Source: an uncultured bacterium (GTDB taxonomy: Bacteria > Eisenbacteria > RBG-16-71-46 > CAZAMP01). From it: a DNA stretch of 64,000 nt. This document shows, in pieces, positions 1 to 12,367 of the stretch. Each line of letters starts with the position of its first letter. Within the stretch, counting starts at the first letter, position 1. The stretch is from the NCBI GenBank assembly GCA_964486455.1, contig CAZAMP010000025.1, positions 26-64,025 of the forward strand. The letters are read 5' to 3'. The position numbers and the translations under genes are program-made. The notes below the pieces were generated by a model that was not told the DNA's origin, did not search any database, and saw nothing but the letters and a program-made list of their open reading frames with translations.

Positions 1-539
1 CCAGCGAACCGAAGGACTTCGCCTTCAAGGAGCAGACAAGTACCGAAGGGTTCAACGACAACAACAACGATCTCGCAACGGGCGCCAGGATGAGCTTTGC
101 CCGGGGATCGTTCTCACTCGGCGGCTCCTACCTGCGCGGTGCCTACGATTCCGCGTCGCGCTTCGACTTTCATGCGTGGGGTGTCGATGCGGCCGTAACC
201 GTCATGGGGGTCCGCCTACGATCCGAGTACCTCCAGCGAAGAACGGACGTGGCCGGCGCGAATGGCGGGCGCATGGATATGTGGAAGAAAGGGTTCTATG
301 CGCAGGCCGAGCTACCGCTCGGAGCCCGTTTCATGGGCGTCGCGCGGCTCGACGGCCTCCTGCGAGAGGGCCCGGCCGTCGGCGTACTCGACGAATCGTC
401 CGGCATCGTCCGCGCCACTCTGGGATTGAACATCATGCCGACTGTGGATGTCGGCATTCGAACCGCCGTCGAGCATTGGCGCTTCACCGATTTCACGGAT
501 GTCAATGTTCTCCGCCTCGGGACCGTCATCACTTACTAG
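1..539 (+). CDS. Outer-membrane beta-barrel/porin-like protein, 5' truncated by window edge
   Basis: Frame is open from position 3 (SEPKDFAFKEQ...DNNNDLATGARMSF); amphipathic beta-strands; C-terminal aromatic residue (LRLGTVITY). Confidence 0.65.
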   Translation, partial: SEPKDFAFKEQTSTEGFNDNNNDLATGARMSFARGSFSLGGSYLRGAYDSASRFDFHAWGVDAAVTVMGVRLRSEYLQRRTDVAGANGGRMDMWKKGFYAQAELPLGARFMGVARLDGLLREGPAVGVLDESSGIVRATLGLNIMPTVDVGIRTAVEHWRFTDFTDVNVLRLGTVITY

Positions 540-575
540 ATGCGCTTCCCCCGGCGGACTGGGAGAACCGAACGC

Positions 576-1700
576 ATGCGTCGTGTCGTCAACAGCCTCA
601 TCCTTCTTGCCGCGGGCGCGCTTCTGGCTGTATCGACCGTGGAAACGGCATGGGGACAGGATGACGGCGACGAGGTCAAGATGTTCGATACCGATCTCGG
701 ACCCGCGTCGATCGATGTGAGCGGCTATCCGCCCGAGTTCCAGTCGCTATACCCACTCTTCGCTCGGAAGTGCAGCAAGTGTCACACGCTCGCGAGGCCA
801 ATCAACTCGTCCAAGCTCGGCGACGAGTGGCTCGCGTATGTGAGCCGCATGAGCCGGAAGCCGGGATCCGGAATCAGCCCGCGCGACGCGGAACGCGTCT
901 TCGAGTTTCTCGCGTATGACTCTCAGGCGCGCCAACGAAGCGCCACGGCCGTCGATCCCGAGCTGCTGCCGTTTCTCGAGGTGAGCCGCGAGCTCAGCGG
1001 TGCCAGACGATTTCCGGCCGCGAACAAGAACATCCCGACCGAGGCCGAAGAGCTTCGCCTGCGCGTACGAGGCGATCGTCGGCTGAATCTGAACACGCTC
1101 TTCGAGAGCGGTTCGGGACAGAAGCTCGTCCGCTGGTCACAGCGTGATCCGGGGCGCGGCGAGCTGGTGCTCACGTCCGTGGATACGCGCGACGGAGACG
1201 CGCCCGATCCACCGGCCCGCTCCCCCGCCGACAGCGCGGTCCGGCTGGCCGCATCCGAAGCGATCGGAACCGAAAGCGACACGGAAGAGCAGGTCGAGCT
1301 GATCCTGGACTGGTTGGATGAAGAGATCGAGCGGACCTACCAGCCGGGATCGGCAACGGCGGCGGGCGTGCTCGAAATACGCGAAGGCGATGCCACGGAG
1401 TTCACCCGTCTCTTTTGCGAGATGGCGAGGAGCGCAGGGCTCCCGGCCCGCTCCCGGATCGGCCTCGTCGCGCGACGAACGTCGTTTCACTTTCATGCGT
1501 GGGCGGAGGTGTGGCTTGACGGGTGGGTGCCGATCGACCCCTATCTCGGTCAATTCCCTGCCGACATCACGCACGTTCATCTCAAGGCGGCGGACGGGGA
1601 CGCTATCGACGAATGGAATCCCGACCGCTACCCCGCACTGGATCGCCTGAAGATCGAGGCGATCATCGAGGACACGTCCGACACCGTGGAGGGAGGGTAG
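576..1700 (+). CDS. Secreted monoheme cytochrome c fused to a transglutaminase-like domain lacking the catalytic Cys
   Basis: RBS GGAGAA at 562 then ATG 576; signal peptide; CSKCH with a downstream RM; C-terminal GDATEF..AGLPAR..HAWAEVW..GWVPIDP. Confidence 0.8.
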   Translation: MRRVVNSLILLAAGALLAVSTVETAWGQDDGDEVKMFDTDLGPASIDVSGYPPEFQSLYPLFARKCSKCHTLARPINSSKLGDEWLAYVSRMSRKPGSGISPRDAERVFEFLAYDSQARQRSATAVDPELLPFLEVSRELSGARRFPAANKNIPTEAEELRLRVRGDRRLNLNTLFESGSGQKLVRWSQRDPGRGELVLTSVDTRDGDAPDPPARSPADSAVRLAASEAIGTESDTEEQVELILDWLDEEIERTYQPGSATAAGVLEIREGDATEFTRLFCEMARSAGLPARSRIGLVARRTSFHFHAWAEVWLDGWVPIDPYLGQFPADITHVHLKAADGDAIDEWNPDRYPALDRLKIEAIIEDTSDTVEGG

Positions 1701-1704
1701 AGCC

Positions 1705-3291
1705 GTGAACGGTTCGGCCGAGCCCACCCCCGCTTGCAGACTCGCCTGTCCCGTCGACAAAGACATACCCGGTTTCCTACGCGCGATCGCGCTGGGCGAC
1801 TCCACAGAAGCGTGGCGGATCGCCTACCGAGACACCCTGTTTCCAGGAGTTCTGGGCCGGATCTGTCCGAGACCATGCGAGCCCGCCTGTGTGCTGAGCC
1901 GACACGACGATCCGGTGCCCGTCTGTAGGCTCAAGCGCTGGGTCAGTGAACGCGAGGGAACGCTTCACGGCCCGCCGACCGCCGCGCGAGGCGATGGCCC
2001 CTCGATCGCGGTTATGGGCGCTGGACCGGCCGGTCTCGCGACCGCCCACGATCTCGCCGTACGGGGAGCGAACGTCACCCTCTTCGACCGGGCGGACGAA
2101 CCCGGCGGTCTCATGCTCTCCTGCATCCCAACCTTCCGCCTTCCGGAGGAAACCGTCCGGGAGGACGTCGAGAGGATCTTGGCGCTCGGCATTCGCTTCG
2201 AAGCCGGGCGCGAGTTTCGCTCGACCGACTCGCTGACGACGCTACACGACGAGGGCTTCGACGCGGTCGTCCTGGCGTTGGGTGCCGGCGACGACCACGT
2301 GCCGGAGTTTCCCGGCTGGAGGTCCCCCCCCGCGTGCTGGACCTCGATCGAGTTTCTGGAAGCTTTTCGGCGAGGCGAGGCGGAGCTCGCGGGCCCGAAA
2401 GTCCTCGTCATCGGCGGCGGACTCTCCGCCATCGATGCGGCCCGGGCGGCGCTCCGCACCGGCGGTCGCGAGATTCGAATTCTCTACCGGCGGGACAGGT
2501 CGGAGATGCCCGCCGGCGAATCGGACATCGACGAGACGACGTCGGAGGGCATCACGCTTCACACGCGCGTCACCCCGGTCGAGCTTGCGTGGGACGGAGA
2601 TCGTCTGCGAGGCGCGATCATGGTCCGCACGCGTCCGGGCGATGCGATCGCGGATGGAGAGCAGCGCCCGACCGCCGTGGCGGGTACCGAAGCGCTTCAC
2701 GCCGCCGACGCCGTGATCAGCGCGATCGGCCAGCGGCATCCGCTCCACCGGGCGCGCGACAGCGAGCAAGCGTCATGGTTGTTCAGTTGCGGCGACTTCA
2801 CGACCGGGCCCGGCACGGTCGTCGGCGCCATCGCGTCGGGTCGAAGGACCGCGGCGGCGATCTGGAAATCGCTCAGCGCGGCGGGACGATGGAGCACGCC
2901 GGAAGAAGCCTTTACGCAACATCTTGCGGATGTCCGTCCGGGGAGCGGTGCGCCCTCGACTCCGTCGACCTGGGTATGCGATCGGTCGATCCTTCACCTG
3001 TCCCGCCGGTCCGCAATGTCGGAGGCCGCCCGCTGCGTGGGATGCGATCAAGTTCTTTCCCTGAGCCGAGATCGCTGTATTCTCTGTGGCCAGTGCGCGG
3101 AACGTTGCCTCGAGGCCTGTCTCTCCTGGGAGGCGGACGTCGGGACCGGTTCGTGGCGGCTCGAGATCGACGACTCCATCTGCGCGAGATGCGGTGACTG
3201 CGTGGACGTCTGCCCCTCGGGCGCGCTCAGCTGGAAGCCATGGACGAGAGAGAACAAAACGTGGGTGGCACGGAAGAACAACGTGGCCTGA
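1705..3291 (+). CDS. GltD/SudA/DsrL-like NAD(P)H:flavin Fe-S oxidoreductase with C-terminal ferredoxin domain
   Basis: CRLACP, GRICPRPCEPAC, GAGPAG, GGGLSAID, YRRDRSEMPA, RCVGC, CILCGQCAERC, CARCGDCVDVCP; no signal peptide. Confidence 0.85.
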   Translation: MNGSAEPTPACRLACPVDKDIPGFLRAIALGDSTEAWRIAYRDTLFPGVLGRICPRPCEPACVLSRHDDPVPVCRLKRWVSEREGTLHGPPTAARGDGPSIAVMGAGPAGLATAHDLAVRGANVTLFDRADEPGGLMLSCIPTFRLPEETVREDVERILALGIRFEAGREFRSTDSLTTLHDEGFDAVVLALGAGDDHVPEFPGWRSPPACWTSIEFLEAFRRGEAELAGPKVLVIGGGLSAIDAARAALRTGGREIRILYRRDRSEMPAGESDIDETTSEGITLHTRVTPVELAWDGDRLRGAIMVRTRPGDAIADGEQRPTAVAGTEALHAADAVISAIGQRHPLHRARDSEQASWLFSCGDFTTGPGTVVGAIASGRRTAAAIWKSLSAAGRWSTPEEAFTQHLADVRPGSGAPSTPSTWVCDRSILHLSRRSAMSEAARCVGCDQVLSLSRDRCILCGQCAERCLEACLSWEADVGTGSWRLEIDDSICARCGDCVDVCPSGALSWKPWTRENKTWVARKNNVA

Positions 3292-3758
3292 GCCGAAAGC
3301 TCTTCTTCGAGCGGCTTGGCTGGCTGGGGATCACGATCCTCGGGCTGGCCGGCATCCCCGGGCTCATCCGTTTCCTGAAACCGCGCGTGACGGGAACGTC
3401 CAAGGGCGCGTTCGATGCCGGATCGATCGATGACCTGAGATCGGTGATCGTCAGCACGCGCTGGCTCAAGCGCCATCGGCTGTGGGTGGTCCATGACCGG
3501 GACACGCTCTTCGCCGTGGAGGCCCGCTGCACGCACCTCGGCTGTACACCGCGATGGGACTCCACCGCCGGCGTATTCAACTGCCCGTGCCACGGCAGCC
3601 TCTTCACCCCACAGGGCGTCCCGCTCAACGGTCCGGCCGTCGAGCCGCTCTACCGGTTCGCGATCTGGTCGGACGGCGATCGCGTGGTCATCGATCCGTC
3701 AAAGAAAGCCACTCTGGAAGAGGCCGAGCTGAAGGATGACTATGTCATTCATCTCTAG
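3240..3758 (+). CDS. petC: Rieske [2Fe-2S] subunit
   Basis: CTHLGC and CPCHGS boxes; SRKLF Tat-like motif followed by a TM helix. The start overlaps the upstream gene and is uncertain. Confidence 0.9.
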   Translation: MDEREQNVGGTEEQRGLSRKLFFERLGWLGITILGLAGIPGLIRFLKPRVTGTSKGAFDAGSIDDLRSVIVSTRWLKRHRLWVVHDRDTLFAVEARCTHLGCTPRWDSTAGVFNCPCHGSLFTPQGVPLNGPAVEPLYRFAIWSDGDRVVIDPSKKATLEEAELKDDYVIHL

Positions 3759-3823: not shown

Positions 3824-4612
3824 GTGCCCCATGACACGAAGAAGCGATTCGCCGGGCTTCGCAACAGCCAGTTCTGGCGGTCGCTCTTTCGCACGGGCGT
3901 CCCGGACGATCAAAAGAGCCGCGTGGCCGTCATGCTCTCCACCGTCTTCCTGCACCTACATCCACCCCGTATCCCGGCGGCAGCGATCGTGTTCCGGAGG
4001 ACATTCGGCCTAGGAGGTCTATCGTTTCTGCTCTTCATCATCCTGACGGTCACCGGACTTCTCCTGATGCTCTACTACCGGCCCACGGCGGAGATGGCCT
4101 ACAACGACATTCAAGAGATCGACGCCACCATTCCGTTCGGGCGGCTCATGCGCAACCTGCATCGCTGGTCGGCGCACGCGATGGTGCTGGCCGTAATCGG
4201 TCACATGGCGCGCGTGTTCTATGCCGGTGCGTATCGCCCGCCGCGCGAGTTTAACTGGGTAGTCGGTGTCCTTCTGCTCGTCCTGACGCTGTTCCTGAGC
4301 TTTACGGGCTACCTGCTGCCGTGGGACCAGCTGGCCTACTGGGCAATCACCGTGGGGACGAACATGGCCGGGGCCACGCCGATACTCGGGCACGCGGGGC
4401 CGTTCGCTATCGTGGGGCCGGACAACGACGTCCGCTTTTTGCTCCTGGGCGACACGACGGTGAGCGAGGCGGCGCTGCTCCGTTTCTATGTGCTTCACTG
4501 TGTGATCCTCCCGTTCGTCGTGGCCGTTCTGTCGGCGATTCACTTCTATCGTGTGCGGAAGGACGGCGGGGTATTGGCGCGCGAGAAAGAGGGTCACGAT
4601 GAGCAAACGTGA
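3824..4612 (+). CDS. petB: Cytochrome b6-type (split cytochrome b, N-terminal part)
   Basis: [43 protein letters not shown]-x14-H. Confidence 0.92.
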
Positions 4613-5351
4613 CCCCAGGAGTCTCGGCCAAGTGAAGTCGTCAGCTTCCATGCCGATGCGCGAGACACCGAAGCGGTTGGTGACGGTCTGGCCGCACCTT
4701 CTTTACCCGGAGCTCATCTACGCCATCGTCTGGATCGCGATCCTGATCGTGGCGTCGCTCGTGTGGAACGCGCCACTCGAGGAACCGGCCAACCCGACCC
4801 ACACACCGAACCCGGCGAAGGCGCCATGGTACTTCGTGGGTCTGCAGGAACTCCTCGTCTACTTCGACCCGTGGATGGCCGGCGTCGTCATTCCGCTCGT
4901 CATCATCTACGGGCTCTGCGCGATGCCGTACATCGATCCGTCGCGCCGCGGCGGCGGCGTCTACAGCTTCCGGGAGCGGCGGCGCGCATTCATCATCTTC
5001 ACGGCGGGTTTGGCGGGCTGGTTCATCCTGATCGCCATCGGAAGCTGGTTCCGCGGGCCGGGTTGGGCATGGGTCTGGCCGTGGAAAGAGACATTGGGGA
5101 GCGCGCCCGTCGAGGTGTCGACTTCGTTGCCGAACACGGTGGGAATCCCGCTTCTCACGCTCTACTTCATCGGCCTTGGAGCCTGGATCGTTCACCGAAC
5201 CGGACGATGGGAACGCTTCACGCCCGGGCGCCGATGGAATTTCGCGCTCCTCACGCTCGCGATGACGGGCGTCGGTCTCAAAATCGTCATGCGGCTCGTG
5301 TTCGGGATCAAGTACGTCGTGAGCTTCCCGAGCATCGGTTTCAACATCTGA
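4599..5351 (+). CDS. petD: Cytochrome b subunit IV-like protein
   Basis: [26 protein letters not shown] (APWY in place of PEWY); several TM helices; ATG 4599 overlaps the end of cytochrome b. Confidence 0.85.
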
Positions 5352-5360
5352 GGCGTCGAT

Positions 5361-7013
5361 ATGCGACTCGGCTTTGCGATATCGGTCGGTCTTCTCCTGG
5401 CGGTGTCGATCTGGGCCGTGTGGGCCGAGCTACGGCCCGAGTGGCGGCGTCACCAGGAGACGCTCTTCGCACGGGCCGAAGAACGTCTCGAAGCCGAACT
5501 CGACCAAGCGCGTCAGACCTTCGAGCGGCCGGAGGTGCAGGATCGACTTGCGACCATCGACCGACGGCTGTCGAAAATCGCGGCAGACACGACCGAGACG
5601 GCGACGCGGCGCACCGAGATCCAGAGCCGCCTGGCCGAGATTCGGACCGAGACGGCACGCCTTCGATCGCGTCTTCGTCACGAGGAGACACGCCTCTGGA
5701 CACCGGAGGTCGCGCGCCCCTATCGGGCCGCGCTGTCGCTCCTCGCCGCCGCTCAAAACGCCTACAGCGATGCGAGCGGCAGATGGCCACGGGACGCGGC
5801 GGAGGTTGACAGCCTCAAGGCGCGGGTCGATTCACTGGCGGAACTGTCGGGGCGATTCGTCCTCCGGATGGAGACGTTTCGACAAGAGCTGGAGCACGCG
5901 CGCGAAGAGGAGCGCGCGCTTCGGCTGCAGGCCGCGCTCATCACGGCCGAGGAAGAGAGCCTCCGGGCGGAGAAGCGCCGCATCCTTCGCCCCGTACGTT
6001 CGCTGGAGGTATCGCTCGATCGCGTGCGGAACCACCGGCCGGGAATTCGTGAGATCGCGTCTCCCGACGGCAATGAGAAAGCCCGATGCCCGACCTGTCA
6101 CGGCGATCTCATCCATCCGCCGGGCGCGCATCCCGTTCTCGACACGGGCGGCGATCTCGTCGATGTCGTGTGCACAGCCTGCCATCGCGGCGATGGAAGG
6201 GCACTCGACACCGAGCGCGCGCACCGCGGCCTGCTCACCGCGGCGGGTCAGGGCGCCGGACCGTTCTCACTTCAGGGTCGCATCGATCGTCTCGCGGATG
6301 CCGACCCGGACGTCCGCCGCGAAACGCTCGACGAGCTTCGCTTGATCACCGGGATCGATCCCGGCGCGGTCATCACGCCCGGGGGTAACGCAGACAGCGC
6401 GCGGGCGGCGGCGTGGCTCGACTGGTGGACCGACGCGCGCCGCTATTTCGAGACGGGCGAGGGATCCACCGAGGGGGACGACCCGGACCGGCTCATTGCG
6501 ATGGGACTCGATCCCTGGCTCGTCTCCACCGAGGGGCGACCGCTTCAGTACGTCGGCTCACAGGAGTGTTTGAGCTGCCACGAAACGCTTCACCGGGAGC
6601 ATTGTGAACGGTGGGTGGCGACGAAATCCAGCAGCCTGGAGCGACTCAAGGATGAACCCGACCCCGAAAAGTGCTATCCCTGCCACGCAACCGGATACGA
6701 GCCGGAGACCGGCACGTTCGCCGAGCCGGGTGTCACGTGCGAGGCCTGTCATGGACCGGGAGAGCGGTACAGCGAGATGATGTTCGTCGGGAAAGAGCTG
6801 ACCGGTCGTGGCGATACCGCTAGGGGAAACGCGCTCCTGGACCTATCGTCCCGCCTCTCGCGCGACGCCATCAGCCGGCGGCTCGTGGAAGGCGATTACG
6901 GTCCGATCAATGTGTGTGTGGAATGTCATCACCCGCGGAGGCACGCGGAAGGAGGACCCGGGTTCCTCGAGCGTGTCGGCGCGGACGCGGATTCGATCGA
7001 GGAGGGCGAGTGA
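5361..7013 (+). CDS. Membrane-anchored hexaheme cytochrome c with long coiled coil
   Basis: N-terminal TM helix, about 200 aa of heptad-rich sequence, six CxxCH (CPTCH, CTACH, CLSCH, CYPCH, CEACH, CVECH). Confidence 0.85.
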   Translation: MRLGFAISVGLLLAVSIWAVWAELRPEWRRHQETLFARAEERLEAELDQARQTFERPEVQDRLATIDRRLSKIAADTTETATRRTEIQSRLAEIRTETARLRSRLRHEETRLWTPEVARPYRAALSLLAAAQNAYSDASGRWPRDAAEVDSLKARVDSLAELSGRFVLRMETFRQELEHAREEERALRLQAALITAEEESLRAEKRRILRPVRSLEVSLDRVRNHRPGIREIASPDGNEKARCPTCHGDLIHPPGAHPVLDTGGDLVDVVCTACHRGDGRALDTERAHRGLLTAAGQGAGPFSLQGRIDRLADADPDVRRETLDELRLITGIDPGAVITPGGNADSARAAAWLDWWTDARRYFETGEGSTEGDDPDRLIAMGLDPWLVSTEGRPLQYVGSQECLSCHETLHREHCERWVATKSSSLERLKDEPDPEKCYPCHATGYEPETGTFAEPGVTCEACHGPGERYSEMMFVGKELTGRGDTARGNALLDLSSRLSRDAISRRLVEGDYGPINVCVECHHPRRHAEGGPGFLERVGADADSIEEGE

Positions 7014-7936
7014 GACAGGCGTCTAGCATCTGCACGTGCGGCATCCTGTTGCTCGTTCTGATGGGCTGCCCGGGAGAGGAGCCGGAGCTTCCCGACCCGG
7101 CGGCACAGACATCAAGCGCCGTAGATCGGGTAACGCCGCCGATGATTCAAGGTGACAGCGAGGCGTTTCGCGAGATGGAGCTTCCGCCTAGCCAGTTCGT
7201 CCGCGTGATTCCCACCGGCGACGCGCACGATCCGGAATCCGCGCCGGCCTTCCGAAGTCTCTGCCTGAACTGCCACGCGGTGAGCCAGACGTCGTTCGCC
7301 ACGGAAGCATGGGTGCAGAGTCTTCACGCGCGGGCCGGTGTGACGTGCGCGGCGTGCCACGGCTCCCACGAGGGAACGTTTGCTCCCCAGCCAACCGCGG
7401 AGGATTGCCGCAGATGTCACTCCCGACAGGTTGAAGCGTTTCTCGCGTCGGGCCACGGACCCGAGCGGGCCCCGGGCATGCGTTGCGTCTCGTGTCATGA
7501 GGTTCACGCCACCGATCGGAAACTGGCGATGAGCACGACGCTATGTACCGGTTGTCATATCGAATCGGAGCACGTGACCGGTTACGCGGAATCGCGGATG
7601 GGTGTGATCTTCCTTCAGGAAGGTTATGACGAGAACGGAGACCTGAGGGCTCCCGATTGTGTCTATTGCCACATGCCGCCCGATCCGATCATGGACGAAA
7701 CCGGCGACTTTCGAACCGACCGGGTGACGCTACACGACCCGGCCATCACGGTCGAAAAACACGCCAAAGACCCGAGTCGCCTATCGGACGCGGCAATCGA
7801 GTTCCTGCTGCCGCAGTGCGTGACGTGCCACAGCGAACGCAATGCCCGCCATCGGCTAGAGAACTCCGACACGCTGCTCCGACACTGGACACCGCTCGGA
7901 ATGGATGAGGCGACGCGACGGAAGGCGGCCCAATGA
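7010..7936 (+). CDS. Heptaheme cytochrome c lipoprotein, HAO-like scaffold
   Basis: GTG overlaps the upstream TGA; lipobox LVLMGC; seven CxxCH; APDCVYCHM and CVTCHS resemble HAO hemes 7 and 8. Confidence 0.8.
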   Translation: MRQASSICTCGILLLVLMGCPGEEPELPDPAAQTSSAVDRVTPPMIQGDSEAFREMELPPSQFVRVIPTGDAHDPESAPAFRSLCLNCHAVSQTSFATEAWVQSLHARAGVTCAACHGSHEGTFAPQPTAEDCRRCHSRQVEAFLASGHGPERAPGMRCVSCHEVHATDRKLAMSTTLCTGCHIESEHVTGYAESRMGVIFLQEGYDENGDLRAPDCVYCHMPPDPIMDETGDFRTDRVTLHDPAITVEKHAKDPSRLSDAAIEFLLPQCVTCHSERNARHRLENSDTLLRHWTPLGMDEATRRKAAQ

Positions 7937-10158
7937 TCGAACGGCGCGATTTCCTGAAATGCTGTGCCGGATGCGCGGCGGCGATCGCGATCGACGGGCT
8001 GCATCATTCCGGTGTTCGAGCGGCGCCCGTCGACGAGTGGACCCGCAGCGTCTGCGATCTCTGCGGTCTGGGCGAGCCGGTCTTCATCGGAACCCGAGAG
8101 GGCAAACCCGCGGCGGTGAAAGGAATCCCGAATTCGACGATCGGATTCGGCCGACTCTGCCCGCGCTCACAAGCGCTTTGGTCGGGCGGACTCGGCGAGC
8201 AGCGCGCGCTTCAGCCGCTGATCCGGCGCGACCCCGCCACCAAAGGAACGCTGGAAGGCCTCATGCCGGCGACCTGGGACGAAGCGCTCCAGGCCGCGGC
8301 GGGGGGGCTCGCGCGCGTTCGCGAGCGCCTCGGCCCGAGCGGCCTGGCGTTCTTCGCTTCCGACGGGGAAACGAACGAGACGTATCACCTTCTGTCGAAG
8401 GTCGCGCGGGGAGTGTTCGGGACCGATCACGTCGACACGCCCGCCCGCCTCGACGCGTTCGGTGCCGCTGATGCGTGTCTCGACGTGTTCGGCGTTCCCG
8501 GCAACGCCGCATCTCTGGAGGATGTCGATGCGGCATCGCTGATCATCCTCGTCGGCGGCGACGTGGCCGACAGCCACCCGGCGCTCTTCACCCGTGTGCT
8601 GGATGCGCGCCGAAACGGCCGGGCAAACGTCGTCGTGATCGACGCACGGAAGACCCTCGCGGCCGGTGCGGCGGACCTTCACCTGCGCCCGATGCCGGGC
8701 GGCGAGCTAGCAATCGTGAACGCGCTGGCCCGCGCGCTGCTCGCCGAAGCGCGGATCGAGCGGCTTCGGGCCACCGACCGCATTCGGCATCAGATCGAGC
8801 CGCTGGAGGCTCTCTGGAACGAGGCACGCTCGGTGACCACCATCGTGGGGCCGACCGTTCTCGCGTCGCGCTCCGGCTCTGTGTTCGCGCGCGCCGTGGC
8901 ACAGCTCCATCGGGCCACCGGCCAGTGGGGTCGTCCCGGCACCGGATGTCTCTTCCTGCCGAAGGGCGCAAACGCCTCGGGCGTGGTGACGCTCGGAATC
9001 GCCCCCGGTCGGCTCCCGGGCCTGCGATCACTGACCGATGCGGACGAGCGTGAGCGCGTGGCCACCTGGTGGGATGTCGAGCCCGAGCGCATGCCGAGGA
9101 GCGTGGGTCTTCCGGCCACATCTTGGCCGCGCGCGATCGAGAACGGCGACATCGGCGCCATGATCGTGCTCCGGGCCAACCCGGCGGTCGAGATGCCAAA
9201 CGCGTCGGCCTGGCGCGAGGCGCTACGGAGCGCCTTCGTCGTCTCGGCCGCGACGCACTCCCCGAGCGAGACCGGAGTCTACGCGGACGTCGTGCTTCCG
9301 CTCGCGCTGGTCACAGGAGAATCGGACGGAACGATGATGACGCTCGAAAGGCGTTGCCAGCTCCTCGAGCGAGCTGCCGATCCGCCCGGTGAAGCCCGAT
9401 CGGCTTCCGAGGTTCTCGTGGCGCTCGCGCGCGGAAACCTCGACGCAACGTCCCACGACCAGATCCTCGGGCGATACCAGGCCGGGCCGCACGTCGCGTG
9501 GGGCGAGTGGCAAGCGCTGTCTCGGGGCACGGAGTGCGACGCGAGCGGGATCACGATCACGCGCCTTCGCGAGACCCTGGGAATCAAGTGGCCGTGTCCG
9601 GCGGAGAACGACCCCGGGCTGGAACGCATCGGACCCGAATCCGGCATGGCGGTCCGCGCGGCGGCCGACGGCTCGGTGCTGGCACCCCCGACCATCGCCT
9701 CGGCTAAACCGTTCGTGGAGACGTCAGTCCCCACCGACCTGCCCCGCGCCGACGACGTGCGTCCGTTTCTTCTCGTGGGCGGGCCCATTCGTGAGCACTT
9801 CCGATCGCGCATGCGCACCGGGCGCTGTGATGAGCTTCACTACGAAGCCCCCGTCGCACGCATCGAGATGAATCCGGCCGACGGCAGCGAGCTTGGGATT
9901 CCCGACGGAGAATGGGTTACGCTCGAGTCGGAGACCGGTAGACTCACCGCGCGCGTGTGGCTCACCGACCGCTCCCCGCGCCGCATGCTCTTCATACCCG
10001 AACACTTCGGCTTTCTCTCGGACACACAAGGTGGCAGCGATACGGTGAAGGAACCGGAAGGGCTCTTCCAGCTCGTGGCGTCGGACGGGCCTGTCGTCGC
10101 CGTGCAGGCGCGGAAAGCCAGACGGCGCGACATGCGCCGCCGGGGGCTTTCAGGCTAG
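7933..10158 (+). CDS. Tat-exported NapA/NasA-like molybdopterin-family protein with divergent cofactor ligands
   Basis: RRDFLK; CDLCGLGE...LCPRS; ATWDEAL; GTDHVDTPARLD; ADVVLP; C-terminal molydopterin-binding domain (IEMNPADG). Confidence 0.8.
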   Translation: MIERRDFLKCCAGCAAAIAIDGLHHSGVRAAPVDEWTRSVCDLCGLGEPVFIGTREGKPAAVKGIPNSTIGFGRLCPRSQALWSGGLGEQRALQPLIRRDPATKGTLEGLMPATWDEALQAAAGGLARVRERLGPSGLAFFASDGETNETYHLLSKVARGVFGTDHVDTPARLDAFGAADACLDVFGVPGNAASLEDVDAASLIILVGGDVADSHPALFTRVLDARRNGRANVVVIDARKTLAAGAADLHLRPMPGGELAIVNALARALLAEARIERLRATDRIRHQIEPLEALWNEARSVTTIVGPTVLASRSGSVFARAVAQLHRATGQWGRPGTGCLFLPKGANASGVVTLGIAPGRLPGLRSLTDADERERVATWWDVEPERMPRSVGLPATSWPRAIENGDIGAMIVLRANPAVEMPNASAWREALRSAFVVSAATHSPSETGVYADVVLPLALVTGESDGTMMTLERRCQLLERAADPPGEARSASEVLVALARGNLDATSHDQILGRYQAGPHVAWGEWQALSRGTECDASGITITRLRETLGIKWPCPAENDPGLERIGPESGMAVRAAADGSVLAPPTIASAKPFVETSVPTDLPRADDVRPFLLVGGPIREHFRSRMRTGRCDELHYEAPVARIEMNPADGSELGIPDGEWVTLESETGRLTARVWLTDRSPRRMLFIPEHFGFLSDTQGGSDTVKEPEGLFQLVASDGPVVAVQARKARRRDMRRRGLSG

Positions 10159-10402
10159 TCCGGCGCGACACGTTTCCGCCACCCGCACCGCAATCCCCTG
10201 CCCTCGCTTGGATTGCGTCCCGTGCTTCCCGTTCGGAGTCTCCGGAGGTAGAATCGATCATCGAGGCGACCAGGCAACCGCACAGCTCACATGGCGGTGG
10301 GCGGTTCGCCAAGCAGCTGCTCCGCTCCCCCCCGGTCACGCGTAACTCCCTGCGCCACATCTCCGCCGGCGGGCCGCCCGCTCCCGACAAGGAGGCCAGG
10401 CG

Positions 10403-12367
10403 ATGCGTATCCTCTCCGTGCTCCTCTGCCTTTCCGCCGTCATATTCGCCGCATCCGCGGGCGCACGCACGTGGCACGTTCCCGGTAACGCCCCCACGAT
10501 CCAGGCGGGGATCGATTCCGCGTCGGCCGGCGACACCGTGCTCGTCGCGTGCGGGACGTACTACGAGCATGACATCGAAACGAAGTCACAGGTGTGTCTA
10601 CGAAGCGAGACGGGGCAGGCGGATTGCGTGACGATCGATGCTCAGCAGCTGGGTAGTGTTCTTCGGTCCACGTACTACTCGGGGCCAACGACCTTAGAAG
10701 GACTGACCCTCACAGGCGGCGATGCGAATATCGGCGGCGGGTTCTATTGCACGAGCTATGAGATCACCGTCTCGAATTGCGTATTCACCGATAACTCGGC
10801 GTGGGGCGGGGGCGGTATGTGGTCCACGGGCGGAGTTACGTTCATCGACTGCGTCTTCTCCGACAACACCGCCTCGATCGGTGGTGGAATCGCCAACCAA
10901 GAGGCCACGCTTTCACTCAACGGGTGCCTCTTCACGAACAACTCGGCCGCACGAGGCGGCGGTGTCTATCTGTGGGGATTTACATGGCCCAGCATCAATC
11001 ACTGTTCCTTCGTGGGAAACTCGGCGGCGACAAGCGGCGGTGGCGTCTTCGGCGAGTTCGAGGTCCAGGGCTCATTCACCCACTGCACGTTCTTCGCCAA
11101 CTCCTCACCGACAGGCGGCGGCATCATGCTGGAAGGCAGCTCGTTGCTTCACCTCGACAACACGATCATCGCGTTCTGTCCGGAGGGTGAGGCCGTGGGA
11201 TTCGGCGAGAACTACAGAACCGACGTTACTTTCGCGTGCTCCGACATCTTCGGCAACGTCGGCGGTGACTGGGTAGGCGGCGGTTTGCCGGGACAATACG
11301 GCGTCGACGGCAACATCTCCGCGGATCCCCAGTTCTGCGACGCTGCCGGGGGCGATCTGTATCTGTCATCGACCTCTCCCTGTCTCTACGATTCGTGTGG
11401 TCAGATCGGGGCCTTCGTACAGGGATGCCTGGGCGAGGCACCTCGGATAATGAGTATCCTCGACGTCGATAACGATCAGGGCCGGGCCGTGCGTCTCTCG
11501 TGGCAGCGCTCACGCTACGACGCCGGCGGAGATACTGTCGAGGTCACCGGCTACGGGATCTACCGGCGACAGAATCAGGCCGGGCGGCCGGGGAATGGGC
11601 GTGCGGAGGGCTGGGACTATATCGACACCGCCCCCGCCCGCGGCGATTCGCTCTACCAGTTCGTCGCTCCGACGCTCTGCGACTCCACCGCCAGCGGTAT
11701 CTGTTGGTCGGCCTTCTTCGTGAGCGCGATGACGCCCGATCCGCTCGTCTACTTCGACTCGCCACCCGATAGCGGCTACTCGATCGACAACCTCGAACCG
11801 GGTCCCCCCCAGAACCTGAGATGGGAAACCGAGGCCATCCTCGCGTGGGATGAGGCGGAGGAAGAAGACTTCGACTACTTCTCGGTCTACGGCTCGGCGA
11901 GTGCGGAGTTCGGCGAGGACGCGGAGCTGATTCGGTACACCGTAGGAACGAACATGGACGTGTCGGAAACGATCCATCTGTTCTATCACGTGACGGCCAC
12001 CGACATGAACGGGAACGAGGGAGGTGCCGCGACCGTCGCGACCACCGTGGCCGTACCGGACGCGCTTGTTCCACGCGTGATCGCCCTCGGGCCGTGTCGG
12101 CCCAATCCGTTCAGCGCATCGACCACCCTCTCGCTCGATCTGCCGGAACCAGCGACTGTGACGTGTCGGGTCTTCGACGTCAGCGGCCGTCTCGTCCGCA
12201 CGGTGGCCGACGACCGAAGACCGGCAGGGCAGTATCGCCTGGTTTGGGACGGTGCCGATAGCCGAGGTTCGATCGTACCGGGTGTCTATTTCGTTCGGGT
12301 GGAGGCAGACCGGTTCACTGCCGTCCGAAGGGTCATTCTTCTGAATGGCACTGTGAGACGCCCGTAG
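10403..12367 (+). CDS. Secreted right-handed beta-helix protein with C-terminal FlgD-like domain
   Basis: Signal peptide; TIQAGID; repeated FxxNSA/GGG; NISADPQFC; PNPF...FDVSGRLVRT...WDG...GVYFVR. Confidence 0.85.
   Translation: MRILSVLLCLSAVIFAASAGARTWHVPGNAPTIQAGIDSASAGDTVLVACGTYYEHDIETKSQVCLRSETGQADCVTIDAQQLGSVLRSTYYSGPTTLEGLTLTGGDANIGGGFYCTSYEITVSNCVFTDNSAWGGGGMWSTGGVTFIDCVFSDNTASIGGGIANQEATLSLNGCLFTNNSAARGGGVYLWGFTWPSINHCSFVGNSAATSGGGVFGEFEVQGSFTHCTFFANSSPTGGGIMLEGSSLLHLDNTIIAFCPEGEAVGFGENYRTDVTFACSDIFGNVGGDWVGGGLPGQYGVDGNISADPQFCDAAGGDLYLSSTSPCLYDSCGQIGAFVQGCLGEAPRIMSILDVDNDQGRAVRLSWQRSRYDAGGDTVEVTGYGIYRRQNQAGRPGNGRAEGWDYIDTAPARGDSLYQFVAPTLCDSTASGICWSAFFVSAMTPDPLVYFDSPPDSGYSIDNLEPGPPQNLRWETEAILAWDEAEEEDFDYFSVYGSASAEFGEDAELIRYTVGTNMDVSETIHLFYHVTATDMNGNEGGAATVATTVAVPDALVPRVIALGPCRPNPFSASTTLSLDLPEPATVTCRVFDVSGRLVRTVADDRRPAGQYRLVWDGADSRGSIVPGVYFVRVEADRFTAVRRVILLNGTVRRP

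What the first reader, a model, noticed from the sequence alone, without database searches (positions are those of the whole stretch)
7933..10158. NapA-fold protein with Asp at the Mo-ligand Cys position and a three-Cys Fe-S motif
NapA/NasA have NARHC/NSRLC; here it is PARLD (GAC 8452-54). The third Fe-S Cys is Glu (GAG 8074-76), LCxKG is LCPRS, and the C-terminal TGR..HWHT is GGP..HFRS. Asp ligation is known for NarG-type enzymes but not the Nap clade. Either a new molybdo/tungsto-enzyme chemistry or a cofactor-less scaffold like ActB. Together with the dead transglutaminase and the HAO lacking heme 4, three subunits of this operon deviate at their active sites.
Basis: partly seen in the sequence, partly recalled or inferred. 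Interest (0 to 1): 0.78.

Follow-up and report, generated by a model that had tools for sequence, protein, structure and literature searches.

The report
NapA-like subunit, probably without molybdenum
This gene encodes a conserved relative of periplasmic nitrate reductase that has swapped its metal-binding cysteines for acidic residues and most likely no longer carries the molybdenum cofactor, serving instead as a built-in part of an unusual respiratory Rieske/cytochrome b complex.

Summary
ORF 7933-10158 (741 aa, twin-arginine signal) has the NapA fold, with Asp174 at the Mo-ligand Cys column and Glu48 at the third Fe-S Cys. It is not decay: all 22 homologues (48-60% identity) keep Asp and Glu/Asp. 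They form a clade (support 1.0) on the Nap/Nas side of the tree. The gene ends a syntenic cluster of at least ten genes: transglutaminase-like, GltD-like NAD(P) oxidoreductase, Rieske, split cytochrome b6/subunit IV, and 6-haem and 7-haem cytochromes. It occurs in 8 genomes of two phyla.

The family changes 31 of 107 columns conserved in Cys-bearing relatives; five control clades change 1-16. No NapD is found. Decisively, three carrier genomes (G206, G208, G213) have no detectable MobA. Their only other MopB homologues are NuoG, a QrcB-like protein and a short degenerate one. Their MoaC and MocA-like genes are accounted for by xanthine-dehydrogenase-family enzymes.

Against: 27-30 of 35 superfamily-universal columns survive (E. 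coli NapA 28, NuoG 19). The completeness of those three genomes is unknown.

Best reading (about 0.6): a NapA-derived, Fe-S-bearing, bis-MGD-free subunit of an anammox-type Rieske/cytochrome b complex. An active Asp-ligated enzyme remains possible.

The parts
7933..10158 (+). NapA-fold MopB protein (741 aa), last gene of the conserved cluster; start overlaps the stop of the upstream gene (ATGA)
   Evidence: nothing conserved downstream in 6 of 6 loci
7942..7959 (+). twin-arginine motif RRDFLK (residues 4-9)
   Evidence: RRxFL is present near the N-terminus of 21 of 22 family proteins and internal in P0004; R4, R5, F7, L8 are invariant in alignment A3
8053..8076 (+). Fe-S motif C41-x2-C44-x3-E48 (canonical third Cys replaced by a carboxylate, followed by invariant Pro49)
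8155..8169 (+). LCPRS: fourth cluster Cys76 and Arg78 at the LCxKG lysine column
8443..8454 (+). ARLD: Asp174 in the Mo-ligand Cys/Sec column
8554..8580 (+). GGDVADSHP: canonical GxN...HP loop with Asn replaced by Asp210
8956..8973 (+). LPKGAN: canonical TGQxN segment; universal Gly replaced by Lys/Arg344, Gln by Gly345
9238..9258 (+). VVSAATH: strand end where canonical enzymes have Asp (col 440); here Ala, and Ser/Thr in most relatives
9778..9807 (+). GGPIREHFRS in place of TGR..HWHT; Pro618 replaces the canonical Arg
10006..10062 (+). C-terminal lineage-specific insertion FGFLSDTQGGSDTVKEPEG
   Evidence: shared only with the sister family and the P0123/P0285/P0122 group, not with Caldithrix, Rhodothermus, Desulfovibrio or E. 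coli NapA
6914..7936 (+). heptahaem c-type cytochrome (7 CxxCH), lipobox-like LMGC; true start probably downstream of 6914
   Evidence: 7 motifs in 6 of 6 homologues
5361..7013 (+). 550-aa cytochrome: N-terminal hydrophobic segment, long coiled-coil-like stretch, 6 CxxCH
4551..5351 (+). subunit IV-like membrane protein (Cytochrom_B_C)
3824..4612 (+). cytochrome b6-like (Cytochrome_B, 149 bits)
3240..3758 (+). Rieske [2Fe-2S] protein with membrane anchor (CTHLGC...CPCHGS)
1705..3291 (+). GltD-like FAD/NAD(P)-binding Fe-S oxidoreductase with C-terminal 2x[4Fe-4S] domain
540..1700 (+). secreted transglutaminase-core protein with an N-terminal CSKCH haem motif
   Evidence: motif in 6 of 7 loci
2..539 (+). 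3' part of a conserved ~370-aa protein of no known family; the contig starts 25 nt before the window

Best explanation
The protein is a NapA-derived subunit that has most likely given up the Mo/W-bis(pyranopterin guanine dinucleotide) cofactor. It still folds in the cytoplasm and probably still binds an N-terminal Fe-S cluster through Cys41, Cys44, Cys76 and a carboxylate (Glu48). It is exported by the Tat pathway. In the periplasm it would sit with the lipoprotein heptahaem cytochrome at the positive side of a b6-type Rieske/cytochrome b complex. On the cytoplasmic side that complex carries a GltD-like NAD(P) oxidoreductase, the same design as the NAD(P)-linked Rieske/cytochrome b complexes of anammox bacteria. 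In this reading Asp174, Arg/Lys344 and the other newly fixed residues are structural, filling or reshaping the former cofactor cleft. The subunit then acts as a scaffold and perhaps a one-cluster electron relay, as NuoG/Nqo3, ActB and QrcB do in their complexes. Shown: the substitutions, their conservation, the clade, the synteny, the Tat motif, and the presence of the family in genomes without detectable MobA. Inferred: absence of the cofactor, ligation of the cluster by Glu/Asp, physical association with the cytochromes, and the role of the complex.
For: (1) Conserved clade, not decay: D174 in 22 of 22, E/D48 in 22 of 22, R78 in 22 of 22, and in 15 of 15 genomic loci. The family is monophyletic with support 1.0.
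(2) Divergence at sites that canonical enzymes keep. Of 107 columns conserved at 75% or more in Cys-bearing relatives, the family keeps 76, has 12 fixed to a new residue and 19 variable. Five control clades of Cys-bearing enzymes keep 86-99%, with 0-4 fixed-new and 1-14 variable.
(3) The changed columns include N210, P238, G344 and D440, which are shared by E. coli NapA (Thr at 238), FdhF, NarG and DmsA. E. coli NuoG, which is cofactor-less, also has Asp at 210, Ala at 238 and Arg at 344.
(4) All NCBIfam equivalogs are far below cut-off: Fdh-alpha 262 of 666, NapA 180 of 930.
(5) The sister family (19 sequences) shows the same erosion, with Asp (17), Ala (1) or Gly (1) at the ligand column.
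(6) No NapD was found in this 97%-complete genome. Its single TorD-family gene lies beside the PhsA-like gene on another contig. No chaperone gene is conserved in the cluster.
(7) Comparative test. Eight genomes carry the family, and MoaC is present in 8 of 8. G206, G213 and G208 have no match to this genome's MobA domain at E <= 0.01, while G216 and G217 match at 57% and 54% identity. Their best TIGR02665 hits are MocA/DVU_1551-type transferases. Their other MopB homologues are NuoG (580-586 bits), a QrcB-like protein, and a 527-aa protein; the last two lack the ligand Cys. Three to four xanthine-dehydrogenase-family genes explain MoaC and MocA.
(8) Within that 12-genome phylum, the 4 genomes with a PF00384 match above 140 bits all have MobA. 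The 5 genomes without MobA have none above 118 bits.
(9) The GMP moieties are reported as crucial for cofactor insertion into apo-TorA (PMC9103625, abstract read).
Against: An unbiased count is not decisive. Of 35 columns universal across Nap, Nas, Fdh, Nar and Dms/Phs enzymes, the family keeps 27-30. That is inside the canonical range (mean 32.7, minimum 27; E. coli NapA 28) and far above E. coli NuoG (19). Many nucleotide-fold motifs survive: D237/R239, P255-G256, N416, T447, L455-P456, E463, G466. The four 'marker' columns (N210, G344, D440, R618), at which the family scores 0 of 4, were chosen after seeing where the family differs, so that count is circular. D174 and its neighbourhood are strictly conserved, as expected of a functional site, and Arg78 is the residue that Nar/Dms-type enzymes have in that column. 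Close relatives with intact motifs carry Cys (P0123) or Ser (P0122) at the ligand column, so ligand swapping may occur in active enzymes of this lineage. Completeness of G206, G208 and G213 is not reported, and MocA-like transferases are present there. No metal, cofactor or activity data exist.
Confidence: 0.6

Rival explanations
1. It is an active Mo/W-bisPGD enzyme in the Nap fold with Asp174 as the metal ligand and a Cys3-Glu Fe-S cluster. It would be the high-potential terminal oxidoreductase (nitrate, chlorate, selenate or similar) of the complex, taking the place the HAO-like octahaem protein holds in the anammox Kuste4569-4574 complex.
For: D174, E/D48 and R78 are strictly conserved. 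27-30 of 35 universal columns are retained, within the canonical range. The Tat signal is conserved. The gene sits last, after a multihaem cytochrome, with overlapping stop and start. This genome makes bis-MGD enzymes: a MobB-MobA fusion plus DmsA-like and PhsA-like proteins. The anammox model calls for an exergonic periplasmic reaction (PMC12954380, passages read). Nap plus Rieske/cytochrome b clusters exist in Caldithrix (PMC5317091, passages read). The genome has no other nitrate reductase among its 5 PF00384 matches.
Against: Three of 8 carrier genomes lack detectable MobA and any canonical MopB enzyme. N210, G344 and D440, which are kept even by Asp-ligated NarG, are replaced. No NapD or TorD gene accompanies the cluster. 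The sister family tolerates Ala or Gly at the ligand column. 31 of 107 conserved columns are changed, against 1-16 in control clades.
Confidence: 0.17
2. It is catalytically active but with a different cofactor. One option is a pterin without GMP or with CMP, since MocA-type transferases are present in every carrier examined. Another is a new non-pterin metal site built from the newly fixed Asp, Glu, His and Arg residues.
For: Twelve canonical columns are refixed to new residues and 81 family-invariant residues are rare in canonical relatives. Many of these are shared with the sister family, including D174, G345, W398, W427, R626, H636, D697 and E707. The changes fall on positions I take, from recalled knowledge of Rossmann-type MGD binding, to touch the nucleotide parts (N210, D258E, D440). 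MocA-like genes are present in G206, G208, G213 and G000.
Against: I know of no precedent for MCD or nucleotide-free pterin in a MopB fold (recalled). The MocA-like genes are explained by 3-4 xanthine-dehydrogenase-family enzymes per genome. GMP is reported as crucial for insertion into TorA (PMC9103625, abstract). Refixation is equally expected for a scaffold with new partners.
Confidence: 0.1
3. It is a decaying NapA pseudogene or an assembly artefact of this genome.
For: None beyond the loss of two canonical cysteines.
Against: The frame is intact at 741 aa. There are 22 full-length homologues at 48-60% identity with 170 invariant columns. Eight-gene synteny holds in 6 of 6 loci with enough flank. 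The stretch is present in 4 DNA runs of one study.
Confidence: 0.02

Closest known systems
Monomeric periplasmic nitrate reductase NapA (Desulfovibrio desulfuricans type; PDB 2NAP, 2V45, 2JIM)
   Same: Best sequence match in the PDB (244 bits) and best structural match (E 2e-43, TM 0.66). Same length class, Tat signal and four-domain MopB fold. Lies on the Nap/Nas side of the tree.
   Different: Asp for the ligand Cys and Glu for the third cluster Cys. The TGQ, GxN, VxD and TGR columns are replaced. It has a lineage-specific C-terminal insertion. It scores 180 of 930 bits on the NapA equivalog. No NapD or NapB/C/G/H genes accompany it.
Cofactor-less MopB subunits: NuoG/Nqo3 (complex I), ActB (alternative complex III), QrcB, FhcB
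   Same: MopB fold kept inside a respiratory complex after loss of the ligand residue. NuoG shares Asp210, Ala238 and Arg344 with this protein. ActB is listed as lacking Mo/W-bisPGD, and Nqo3-like sequences are recognised by the missing Cys (PMC10100899, passages read).
   Different: Not a member of those clades. NuoG branches with the Fdh half of the tree, and QrcB scores 52.8 of 440 bits. Derived from NapA, not from Fdh or Arr/Psr. Keeps far more universal columns than E. coli NuoG (27-30 against 19 of 35). Its partner is a Rieske/cytochrome b complex, not an NrfD-type or Nuo membrane module.
Asp-coordinated (Nar-type, DMSO reductase type II) enzymes: NarG, NxrA, PcrA, ClrA, SerA, EbdA
   Same: An Asp where the metal ligand would sit, together with a non-standard first Fe-S cluster ligand set. 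NarG has His-Cys3 (HCCC); here it is Cys3-Glu.
   Different: Different clade: TIGR03479 scores 47.7 of 985 bits and E. coli NarG falls in the outgroup. NarG keeps N210, G344, D440 and R618; this family keeps none of them. The 'Asp-coordinating' group is treated as its own family in PMC10100899 (passages read).
Anammox NAD(P)-linked Rieske/cytochrome b complexes (Kuste4569-4574, Kustd1480-1485)
   Same: b6-like cytochrome b plus subunit IV, a Rieske protein, multihaem cytochromes instead of cytochrome f, and a putative NAD(P) oxidoreductase (PMC12954380, passages read).
   Different: Found here in non-anammox lineages (NCBI labels Eisenbacteria, Gemmatimonadota). There is no full HAO-like octahaem protein. 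Extra subunits: the NapA-like protein, a transglutaminase-like haem protein, a Big_7/PSCyt1 protein and a ~370-aa unknown.
Caldithrix abyssi nap cluster with Rieske/cytochrome b genes
   Same: A NapA-type protein encoded with a Rieske/cytochrome b pair and multihaem cytochromes (PMC5317091, passages read). Caldithrix NapA-type proteins belong to the same monomeric NapA neighbourhood.
   Different: The Caldithrix proteins keep the four cluster Cys, the ligand Cys, TGQ and TGR, and lack the C-terminal insertion.
Arsenite oxidase AioA with its Rieske partner AioB
   Same: A MopB protein with only three cluster cysteines that works with a Rieske protein (recalled, not tested here).
   Different: AioA is a distant match (35 bits). 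By recall, the missing Cys in AioA is the fourth, not the third. AioA holds bis-MGD with no protein ligand.

Membership tests
NapA (periplasmic nitrate reductase catalytic subunit) | Four-domain MopB fold with N-terminal Fe4S4 domain | tested here: met
   Pfam PF00384, PF01568, PF04879; best PDB and fold matches are NapA
NapA (periplasmic nitrate reductase catalytic subunit) | Cys ligand to Mo (RxCM segment) | tested here: not met
   Asp174 in that column in 22 of 22 family members
NapA (periplasmic nitrate reductase catalytic subunit) | Four-Cys motif CxxCxxxC...C for the [4Fe-4S] cluster | tested here: not met
   The third position is Glu (19) or Asp (3)
NapA (periplasmic nitrate reductase catalytic subunit) | Score above the curated equivalog cut-off | tested here: not met
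   TIGR01706 180 of 930.6 bits; NF010055 177 of 904 bits
NapA (periplasmic nitrate reductase catalytic subunit) | NapD chaperone and Nap redox partners | tested here: not met
   No PF03927 match in the 97%-complete genome; no such gene in the conserved cluster
NapA (periplasmic nitrate reductase catalytic subunit) | Nitrate reductase activity | not testable with these tools
   needs enzyme assay
Asp-coordinated Nar-type MopB enzymes | Membership of the Nar/type II clade | tested here: not met
   TIGR03479 47.7 of 985 bits, narG model not matched at E <= 0.001; NarG lies in the outgroup of the tree
Asp-coordinated Nar-type MopB enzymes | Asp bound to Mo | not testable with these tools
   An Asp is present in the Nap Cys column; ligation needs a structure or spectroscopy
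Cofactor-less MopB subunits (NuoG/Nqo3, ActB, QrcB, FhcB) as a functional kind | Loss of the Cys/Sec/Ser/Asp ligand of its parent clade | tested here: met
   The Cys of the Nap/Nas/Fdh clade is replaced
Cofactor-less MopB subunits (NuoG/Nqo3, ActB, QrcB, FhcB) as a functional kind | Erosion of cofactor-binding residues | tested here: inconclusive
   31 of 107 conserved columns changed against 1-16 in controls, but 27-30 of 35 universal columns kept, as against NuoG 19
Cofactor-less MopB subunits (NuoG/Nqo3, ActB, QrcB, FhcB) as a functional kind | Independence from bis-MGD synthesis (MobA) | tested here: met
   The family is present in G206, G208 and G213, where no MobA was detected; completeness of these genomes is not given
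Cofactor-less MopB subunits (NuoG/Nqo3, ActB, QrcB, FhcB) as a functional kind | Descent from one of the named families | tested here: not met
   Separate clade within Nap/Nas; NuoG 99.5 of 470 bits, QrcB 52.8 of 440 bits
Anammox-type NAD(P)-linked Rieske/cytochrome b complex (operon level) | Rieske + b6-type cytochrome b + subunit IV + multihaem cytochrome c + NAD(P) oxidoreductase encoded together | tested here: met
   syntenic in 6 of 6 loci; definition from PMC12954380 (passages)
Anammox-type NAD(P)-linked Rieske/cytochrome b complex (operon level) | HAO-like octahaem subunit (Kuste4574 type) | tested here: not met
   The cytochromes have 6 and 7 CxxCH motifs; there is only a weak partial HAO-like match (E 2e-4)

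The most novel reading that the evidence does not exclude
The protein is a working catalyst that no longer needs MobA-made bis-MGD. It would be a NapA fold holding Mo/W through Asp174 on a nucleotide-free or cytosine-dinucleotide pterin, or holding a new non-pterin metal site, wired through a Cys3-Glu cluster. Its exergonic periplasmic reaction would let a Rieske/cytochrome b complex push electrons uphill to NAD(P)+ outside the anammox bacteria.
Probability: 0.12. Interest if true: 0.9.

Novelty: new variant of a known kind. Interest (0 to 1): 0.6.

Why it matters
MopB proteins that survive as cofactor-free parts of respiratory machines are known from formate-dehydrogenase-like (NuoG) and Arr/Psr-like (ActB, QrcB) ancestors. 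This would be a nitrate-reductase-derived case, attached to a Rieske/cytochrome b complex. It shows that the NAD(P)-linked Rieske/cytochrome b design, so far discussed for anammox bacteria, exists in other phyla with a different periplasmic module. That gives a second, independent system in which the proposed quinol-driven NAD(P)+ reduction can be tested. The family also offers a natural series: Cys ligand with intact motifs, then Ser, then Asp with eroded motifs. Such a series is useful for asking how a molybdoenzyme is retired or re-tooled, and whether a carboxylate can serve the first Fe-S cluster. For annotation, these genes should not be counted as nitrate reductases in metagenomic nitrogen-cycle surveys.

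Tried and rejected
- Complex prediction of the MopB protein (residues 32-741, alignment A3) with the heptahaem cytochrome (residues 95-340) gave no answer: score 0.00 against a mark of 0.32.
- Sequencing runs: no RNA holder was listed. Four DNA runs of one marine-metagenome study hold the stretch, and two of them may be its source.
- The genomic context of the sister family could not be obtained. The metagenome scan with alignment A5 found no relative. The scan with P0278 found one 2-kb fragment. The sister family was not found in the 12-genome phylum.
- The apparent cytochrome-MopB fusion P0004 (1117 aa) was rejected as support. It keeps an internal Tat motif and has a frameshift-like stretch that removes a haem motif, so it looks like an assembly error.
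- The fraction of conserved columns kept (0.63-0.74) does not separate the family from E. coli NapA (0.77) or FdhF (0.74).
- The four-marker count is circular.
- The AF2 model from 21 sequences is only moderate (pLDDT 71, low around the cofactor-facing loops). No coordinates are returned, so the cleft could not be inspected. The second fold job was not used.
- No terminator-like or promoter-like site was found in 10000-10600. GC is only mildly raised over the cluster: 0.64-0.70 against 0.59-0.66 elsewhere.
- A paper giving residue-level MGD contacts was sought but not found. The assignment of N210, D258, G344, D440 and R618 to cofactor contacts therefore rests on conservation and recall.
- Literature searches found no description of this family or operon. 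Supplements are closed and subscription journals are not covered, so prior description cannot be excluded.

Full report
**The observation**

The ORF at 7933-10158 (+) encodes 741 residues. The best match among solved structures is the monomeric NapA of Desulfovibrio desulfuricans (244 bits). In that alignment:
- Asp174 lies over the Cys of 'nprlCmasav';
- Glu48 lies over the third Cys of 'vCryCgtgCgv';
- LCPRS lies over LCLKG;
- GGP..HFRS lies over TSMR..HWHT.

That this Cys is the Mo ligand is recalled knowledge. The column is Cys in 114 of 140 cluster representatives. Pfam finds the three MopB domains. An AF2 model (pLDDT 71) has Dd NapA as its best structural match (E 2e-43, TM 0.66). The N-terminus carries RRDFLK, a twin-arginine motif.

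**A family, not decay**

The large protein search returned 23 relatives at 48-60% identity, followed by a drop to 32% or less. In all 22 full-length members the ligand column is Asp, the third cluster position is Glu (19) or Asp (3), and the LCxKG lysine is Arg. The same residues are read directly from 15 of 15 genomic loci. Alignment A3 has 170 invariant columns. Every curated NCBIfam model is far below its cut-off: Fdh-alpha 262 of 666 bits, NapA 180 of 930 bits.

**Position in the superfamily**

The exhaustive representative search gave 7498 hits, and I aligned the best 145 with the family. E. coli NapA, FdhF, NarG, NuoG and DmsA were added, along with this genome's other MopB proteins. A FastTree LG+gamma tree was built on 185 sequences and 676 columns and rooted on Nar/Dms/Phs; this genome's short NuoG was dropped for low coverage. 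The tree shows:
- the family is monophyletic (support 1.0);
- it is sister to P0126 + P0127 (1.0);
- the next branch is a canonical Cys-bearing sequence, P0196 (0.88);
- all of this lies on the Nap/Nas side, while FdhF and NuoG lie in the other half.

The sister group has 19 sequences. It has CxxCxxxD in 18 of the 18 that cover the site, Asp at the ligand column in 17 (Ala in 1, Gly in 1), and similar erosion.

A C-terminal insertion (SDLxGG..EPE) is shared by only three groups: the family, the sister group, and the small P0123/P0285/P0122 group. It is absent from Caldithrix, Rhodothermus, Desulfovibrio and E. coli NapA. P0123 has the ligand Cys and intact TGQ/TGR motifs but already has CxxCxxxD, and P0122 has Ser at the ligand column. 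The carboxylate at the cluster therefore appears in sequences that otherwise look like working enzymes. I infer that it preceded the loss of the Cys ligand.

**Is the cofactor site intact? Mixed evidence**

*Evidence for erosion.* Of 108 columns conserved at 75% or more in 114 Cys-bearing representatives, the family majority agrees in 79. In a leave-one-clade-out design the family keeps 76 of 107, with 12 columns fixed to a new residue and 19 variable. Five control clades of Cys-bearing sequences keep 86-99%, with 0-4 fixed-new and 1-14 variable columns. The changes fall on the well-known motifs:

| Canonical motif | In the family |
|---|---|
| GxN | GGD |
| DPR | DxR |
| PGTD | PGxE |
| TGQxN | PRGAN |
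| VxD | VxS/T/A |
| TGR | xGP |

E. coli NuoG shares Asp210, Ala238 and Arg344 with the family.

*Evidence against erosion.* Among 35 columns that are also shared by Nar, Dms and Phs enzymes, the family keeps 27-30. That is at the low end of the canonical range (mean 32.7, minimum 27; E. coli NapA 28) and well above E. coli NuoG (19). The overall fraction kept (0.63-0.74) overlaps E. coli NapA (0.77) and FdhF (0.74).

*A circular count.* Four marker columns are N210, G344, D/E440 and R/K/H618. All four are present in 111 of 129 Cys-bearing sequences, and the family has 0 of 4. I picked these columns after seeing the family, so the zero is circular. Only their near-universality in Cys-bearing enzymes is informative.

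**A comparative-genomic test**

This test gives the strongest argument. Eight genomes carry the family:
- G000, G007 and G009 are the 3 carriers among 206 genomes of the window's phylum;
- G206, G208, G213, G216 and G217 are the 5 carriers among 12 genomes of a second, small phylum.

MoaC is present in 8 of 8. This genome has a MobB-MobA fusion, and G007, G216 and G217 have MobA-type genes. In G206, G208 and G213 the best TIGR02665 hits are MocA/DVU_1551-type transferases: MocA 87-96 bits against MobA 30-35 bits. With this genome's MobA domain as query, G216 and G217 match at 57% and 54% identity, while G206, G208 and G213 have nothing at E <= 0.01.

The other PF00384 matches of those three genomes are all degenerate types:
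- NuoG in each (580-586 bits, above the cut-off);
- in G208, a protein whose best family is the cofactor-less QrcB (276 bits, below its cut-off);
- in G208, a 527-aa Fdh/NuoG-like protein.

Both G208 proteins lack the ligand Cys. Three or four xanthine-dehydrogenase-family genes per genome explain MoaC and the MocA-like genes.

Across the 12-genome phylum, the 4 genomes with a PF00384 match above 140 bits all have MobA. The 5 genomes without MobA have none above 118 bits, and three of those five carry the family. The GMP parts of bis-MGD are reported as crucial for insertion into apo-TorA (PMC9103625, abstract read).

The proteins in the MobA-less genomes still keep Asp174, Glu48 and Arg78. 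The conservation of Asp therefore does not track the ability to make bis-MGD.

Caveats: the completeness of G206, G208 and G213 is not reported (G208 has contigs above 1.2 Mb). Related genomes are not independent. A non-orthologous guanylyltransferase cannot be excluded.

In this genome no NapD is found. The single TorD-family gene lies next to the PhsA-like gene on another contig.

**Context**

The gene is the last of a conserved cluster. Eight genes are syntenic in 6 of 6 loci with enough flank, and the last three are present in a 6.8-kb contig:
- a transglutaminase-core protein;
- a GltD-like FAD/NAD(P) Fe-S oxidoreductase;
- a Rieske protein;
- cytochrome b6-like;
- subunit IV-like;
- a 550-aa cytochrome with 6 CxxCH motifs;
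- a 340-aa cytochrome with 7 CxxCH motifs;
- the MopB protein.

Two further upstream genes are also conserved: a Big_7/PSCyt1 protein and a ~370-aa protein of no known family. The window begins inside the second of these. Nothing downstream is conserved. The MopB start overlaps the stop of the heptahaem gene.

The design matches the NAD(P)-linked Rieske/cytochrome b complexes of Kuenenia: b6-type cytochrome b, subunit IV, multihaem cytochromes and an NAD(P) oxidoreductase (PMC12954380, passages read). A nap cluster with Rieske/cytochrome b genes is described for Caldithrix abyssi (PMC5317091, passages read). This genome has a clade II NosZ (873 bits). No NirK, NrfA or canonical nitrate reductase was found.

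**Most likely mechanism (confidence about 0.6)**

The apoprotein would fold in the cytoplasm and take up one Fe-S cluster on Cys41, Cys44, Cys76 and Glu48 (inferred). The Tat pathway then exports it (motif shown). [quoted passage not shown] Without bis-MGD it would act as a scaffold and perhaps as a single-cluster relay, as NuoG, ActB and QrcB do. Asp174 and Arg/Lys344 would then be structural.

The complex as a whole would oxidise quinol. One electron would go through the Rieske protein and the haems to a periplasmic acceptor chain. The other might go through the b haems to the GltD-like subunit, as proposed for anammox. This is inference by analogy.

**Rivals**

- An active Asp-ligated Mo/W-bisPGD enzyme acting as the exergonic terminal module (0.17) fits the conservation and the anammox logic. 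It conflicts with the MobA-less carriers and with the loss of columns that even NarG keeps.
- A re-tooled catalyst with another cofactor (0.10) is not excluded.
- Decay or artefact is excluded by the conservation.

**Novelty and limits**

Seven literature searches found no description of this family or operon. The MopB survey PMC10100899 (passages read) treats the Asp-coordinating enzymes as a separate family. It names ActB, and Nqo3-like sequences without the Cys, as lacking the cofactor. No expression data were found, and the complex prediction gave no answer. Cofactor content can only be settled at the bench.

Noticed in passing
window 540-1700 (motif at residue 78, about nt 771-785): The transglutaminase-core protein carries an N-terminal signal-like segment and a CSKCH/CCKCH c-type haem motif. 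The motif is present in 6 of 7 loci; it was not seen in the L005 ORF as I called it.
   Followed up: partly
window 6914-7936: The 340-aa cytochrome has 7 CxxCH motifs (also in 6 of 6 homologues) and a lipobox-like LMGC. Its best PDB match is chain 6r2q_A (E 5e-6). HAO-like proteins match only residues 190-319 (E 2e-4). It looks like a haem wire rather than an HAO that lost one haem.
   Followed up: partly
window 5361-7013: The 550-aa cytochrome combines an N-terminal hydrophobic segment, about 200 residues that hit SMC-type coiled-coil models, and 6 CxxCH motifs. Only the C-terminal third is well conserved (62-67% identity).
   Followed up: no
window 2-539; L005:24-2514, L006:87-1523: The conserved cluster extends upstream by two genes: a ~470-aa Big_7 protein (with PSCyt1 in L006) and a ~370-aa protein without a family. 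The window's contig starts 25 nt before the window, so the first gene and part of the second are missing here.
   Followed up: partly
proteins P0123, P0285, P0286, P0122: A small NapA-like group has intact TGQ/TGR motifs and the ligand Cys (Ser in P0122), but CxxCxxxD in place of the third cluster Cys, and the same C-terminal insertion as the family. It may be a working enzyme with a carboxylate-ligated cluster. Its context is unknown.
   Followed up: partly
proteins P0025, P0047, P0032, P0134, P0150 (actinobacterial and metagenomic 'molybdopterin oxidoreductase family'): These relatives keep the ligand Cys and the TGQ/TGR columns but have lost one to four of the Fe-S cluster cysteines (for example THDG and SHDD patterns). 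That is the reverse of the case studied here.
   Followed up: no
representatives (alignment): 26 of 140 cluster representatives of the Nap/Nas/Fdh supergroup have a non-Cys residue in the ligand column: Tyr 9, Ser 4, Gly 4, Glu 2, and others 1 each. Many have further motif changes, and some (P0263, P0253, P0215, P0174) keep 33-35 of 35 universal columns.
   Followed up: no
window 7942-8000; N-termini of P0001-P0022: The hydrophobic region of the Tat signal is Cys-rich. It often holds a CxxC directly after RRxFL (CAGC, CGRC, CGHC), and FLAGC in P0018-P0020 resembles a lipobox. No Cys is invariant.
   Followed up: no
protein P0004: An apparent 1117-aa fusion of the heptahaem cytochrome with the MopB protein keeps an internal Tat motif. 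It also has a frameshift-like stretch that removes one haem motif, so it is probably an assembly or gene-calling artefact.
   Followed up: yes
window 10403-12367 (+) and 12396-14615 (-): Two large secreted proteins have Por_Secre_tail (type IX secretion) ends: a beta-helix/FlgD_ig protein and a BNR/sortilin-type protein. They are not conserved next to the cluster in other genomes.
   Followed up: no
G000 contigs C22, C37, C3, C33: The genome holds a clade II NosZ (873 bits), a DmsA/YnfE-family protein (804 bits, above the subfamily cut-off), a PhsA-like protein followed by a TorD-family gene, and a 1022-aa MopB protein of unclear type. No NirK, NrfA or NapD was found.
   Followed up: partly
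L044:1043-3466 (-) in G208: An 807-aa Tat-signal MopB homologue has the cofactor-less QrcB as its best family (276 bits, cut-off 440) and lacks the ligand segment. It sits in a genome without detectable MobA.
   Followed up: partly
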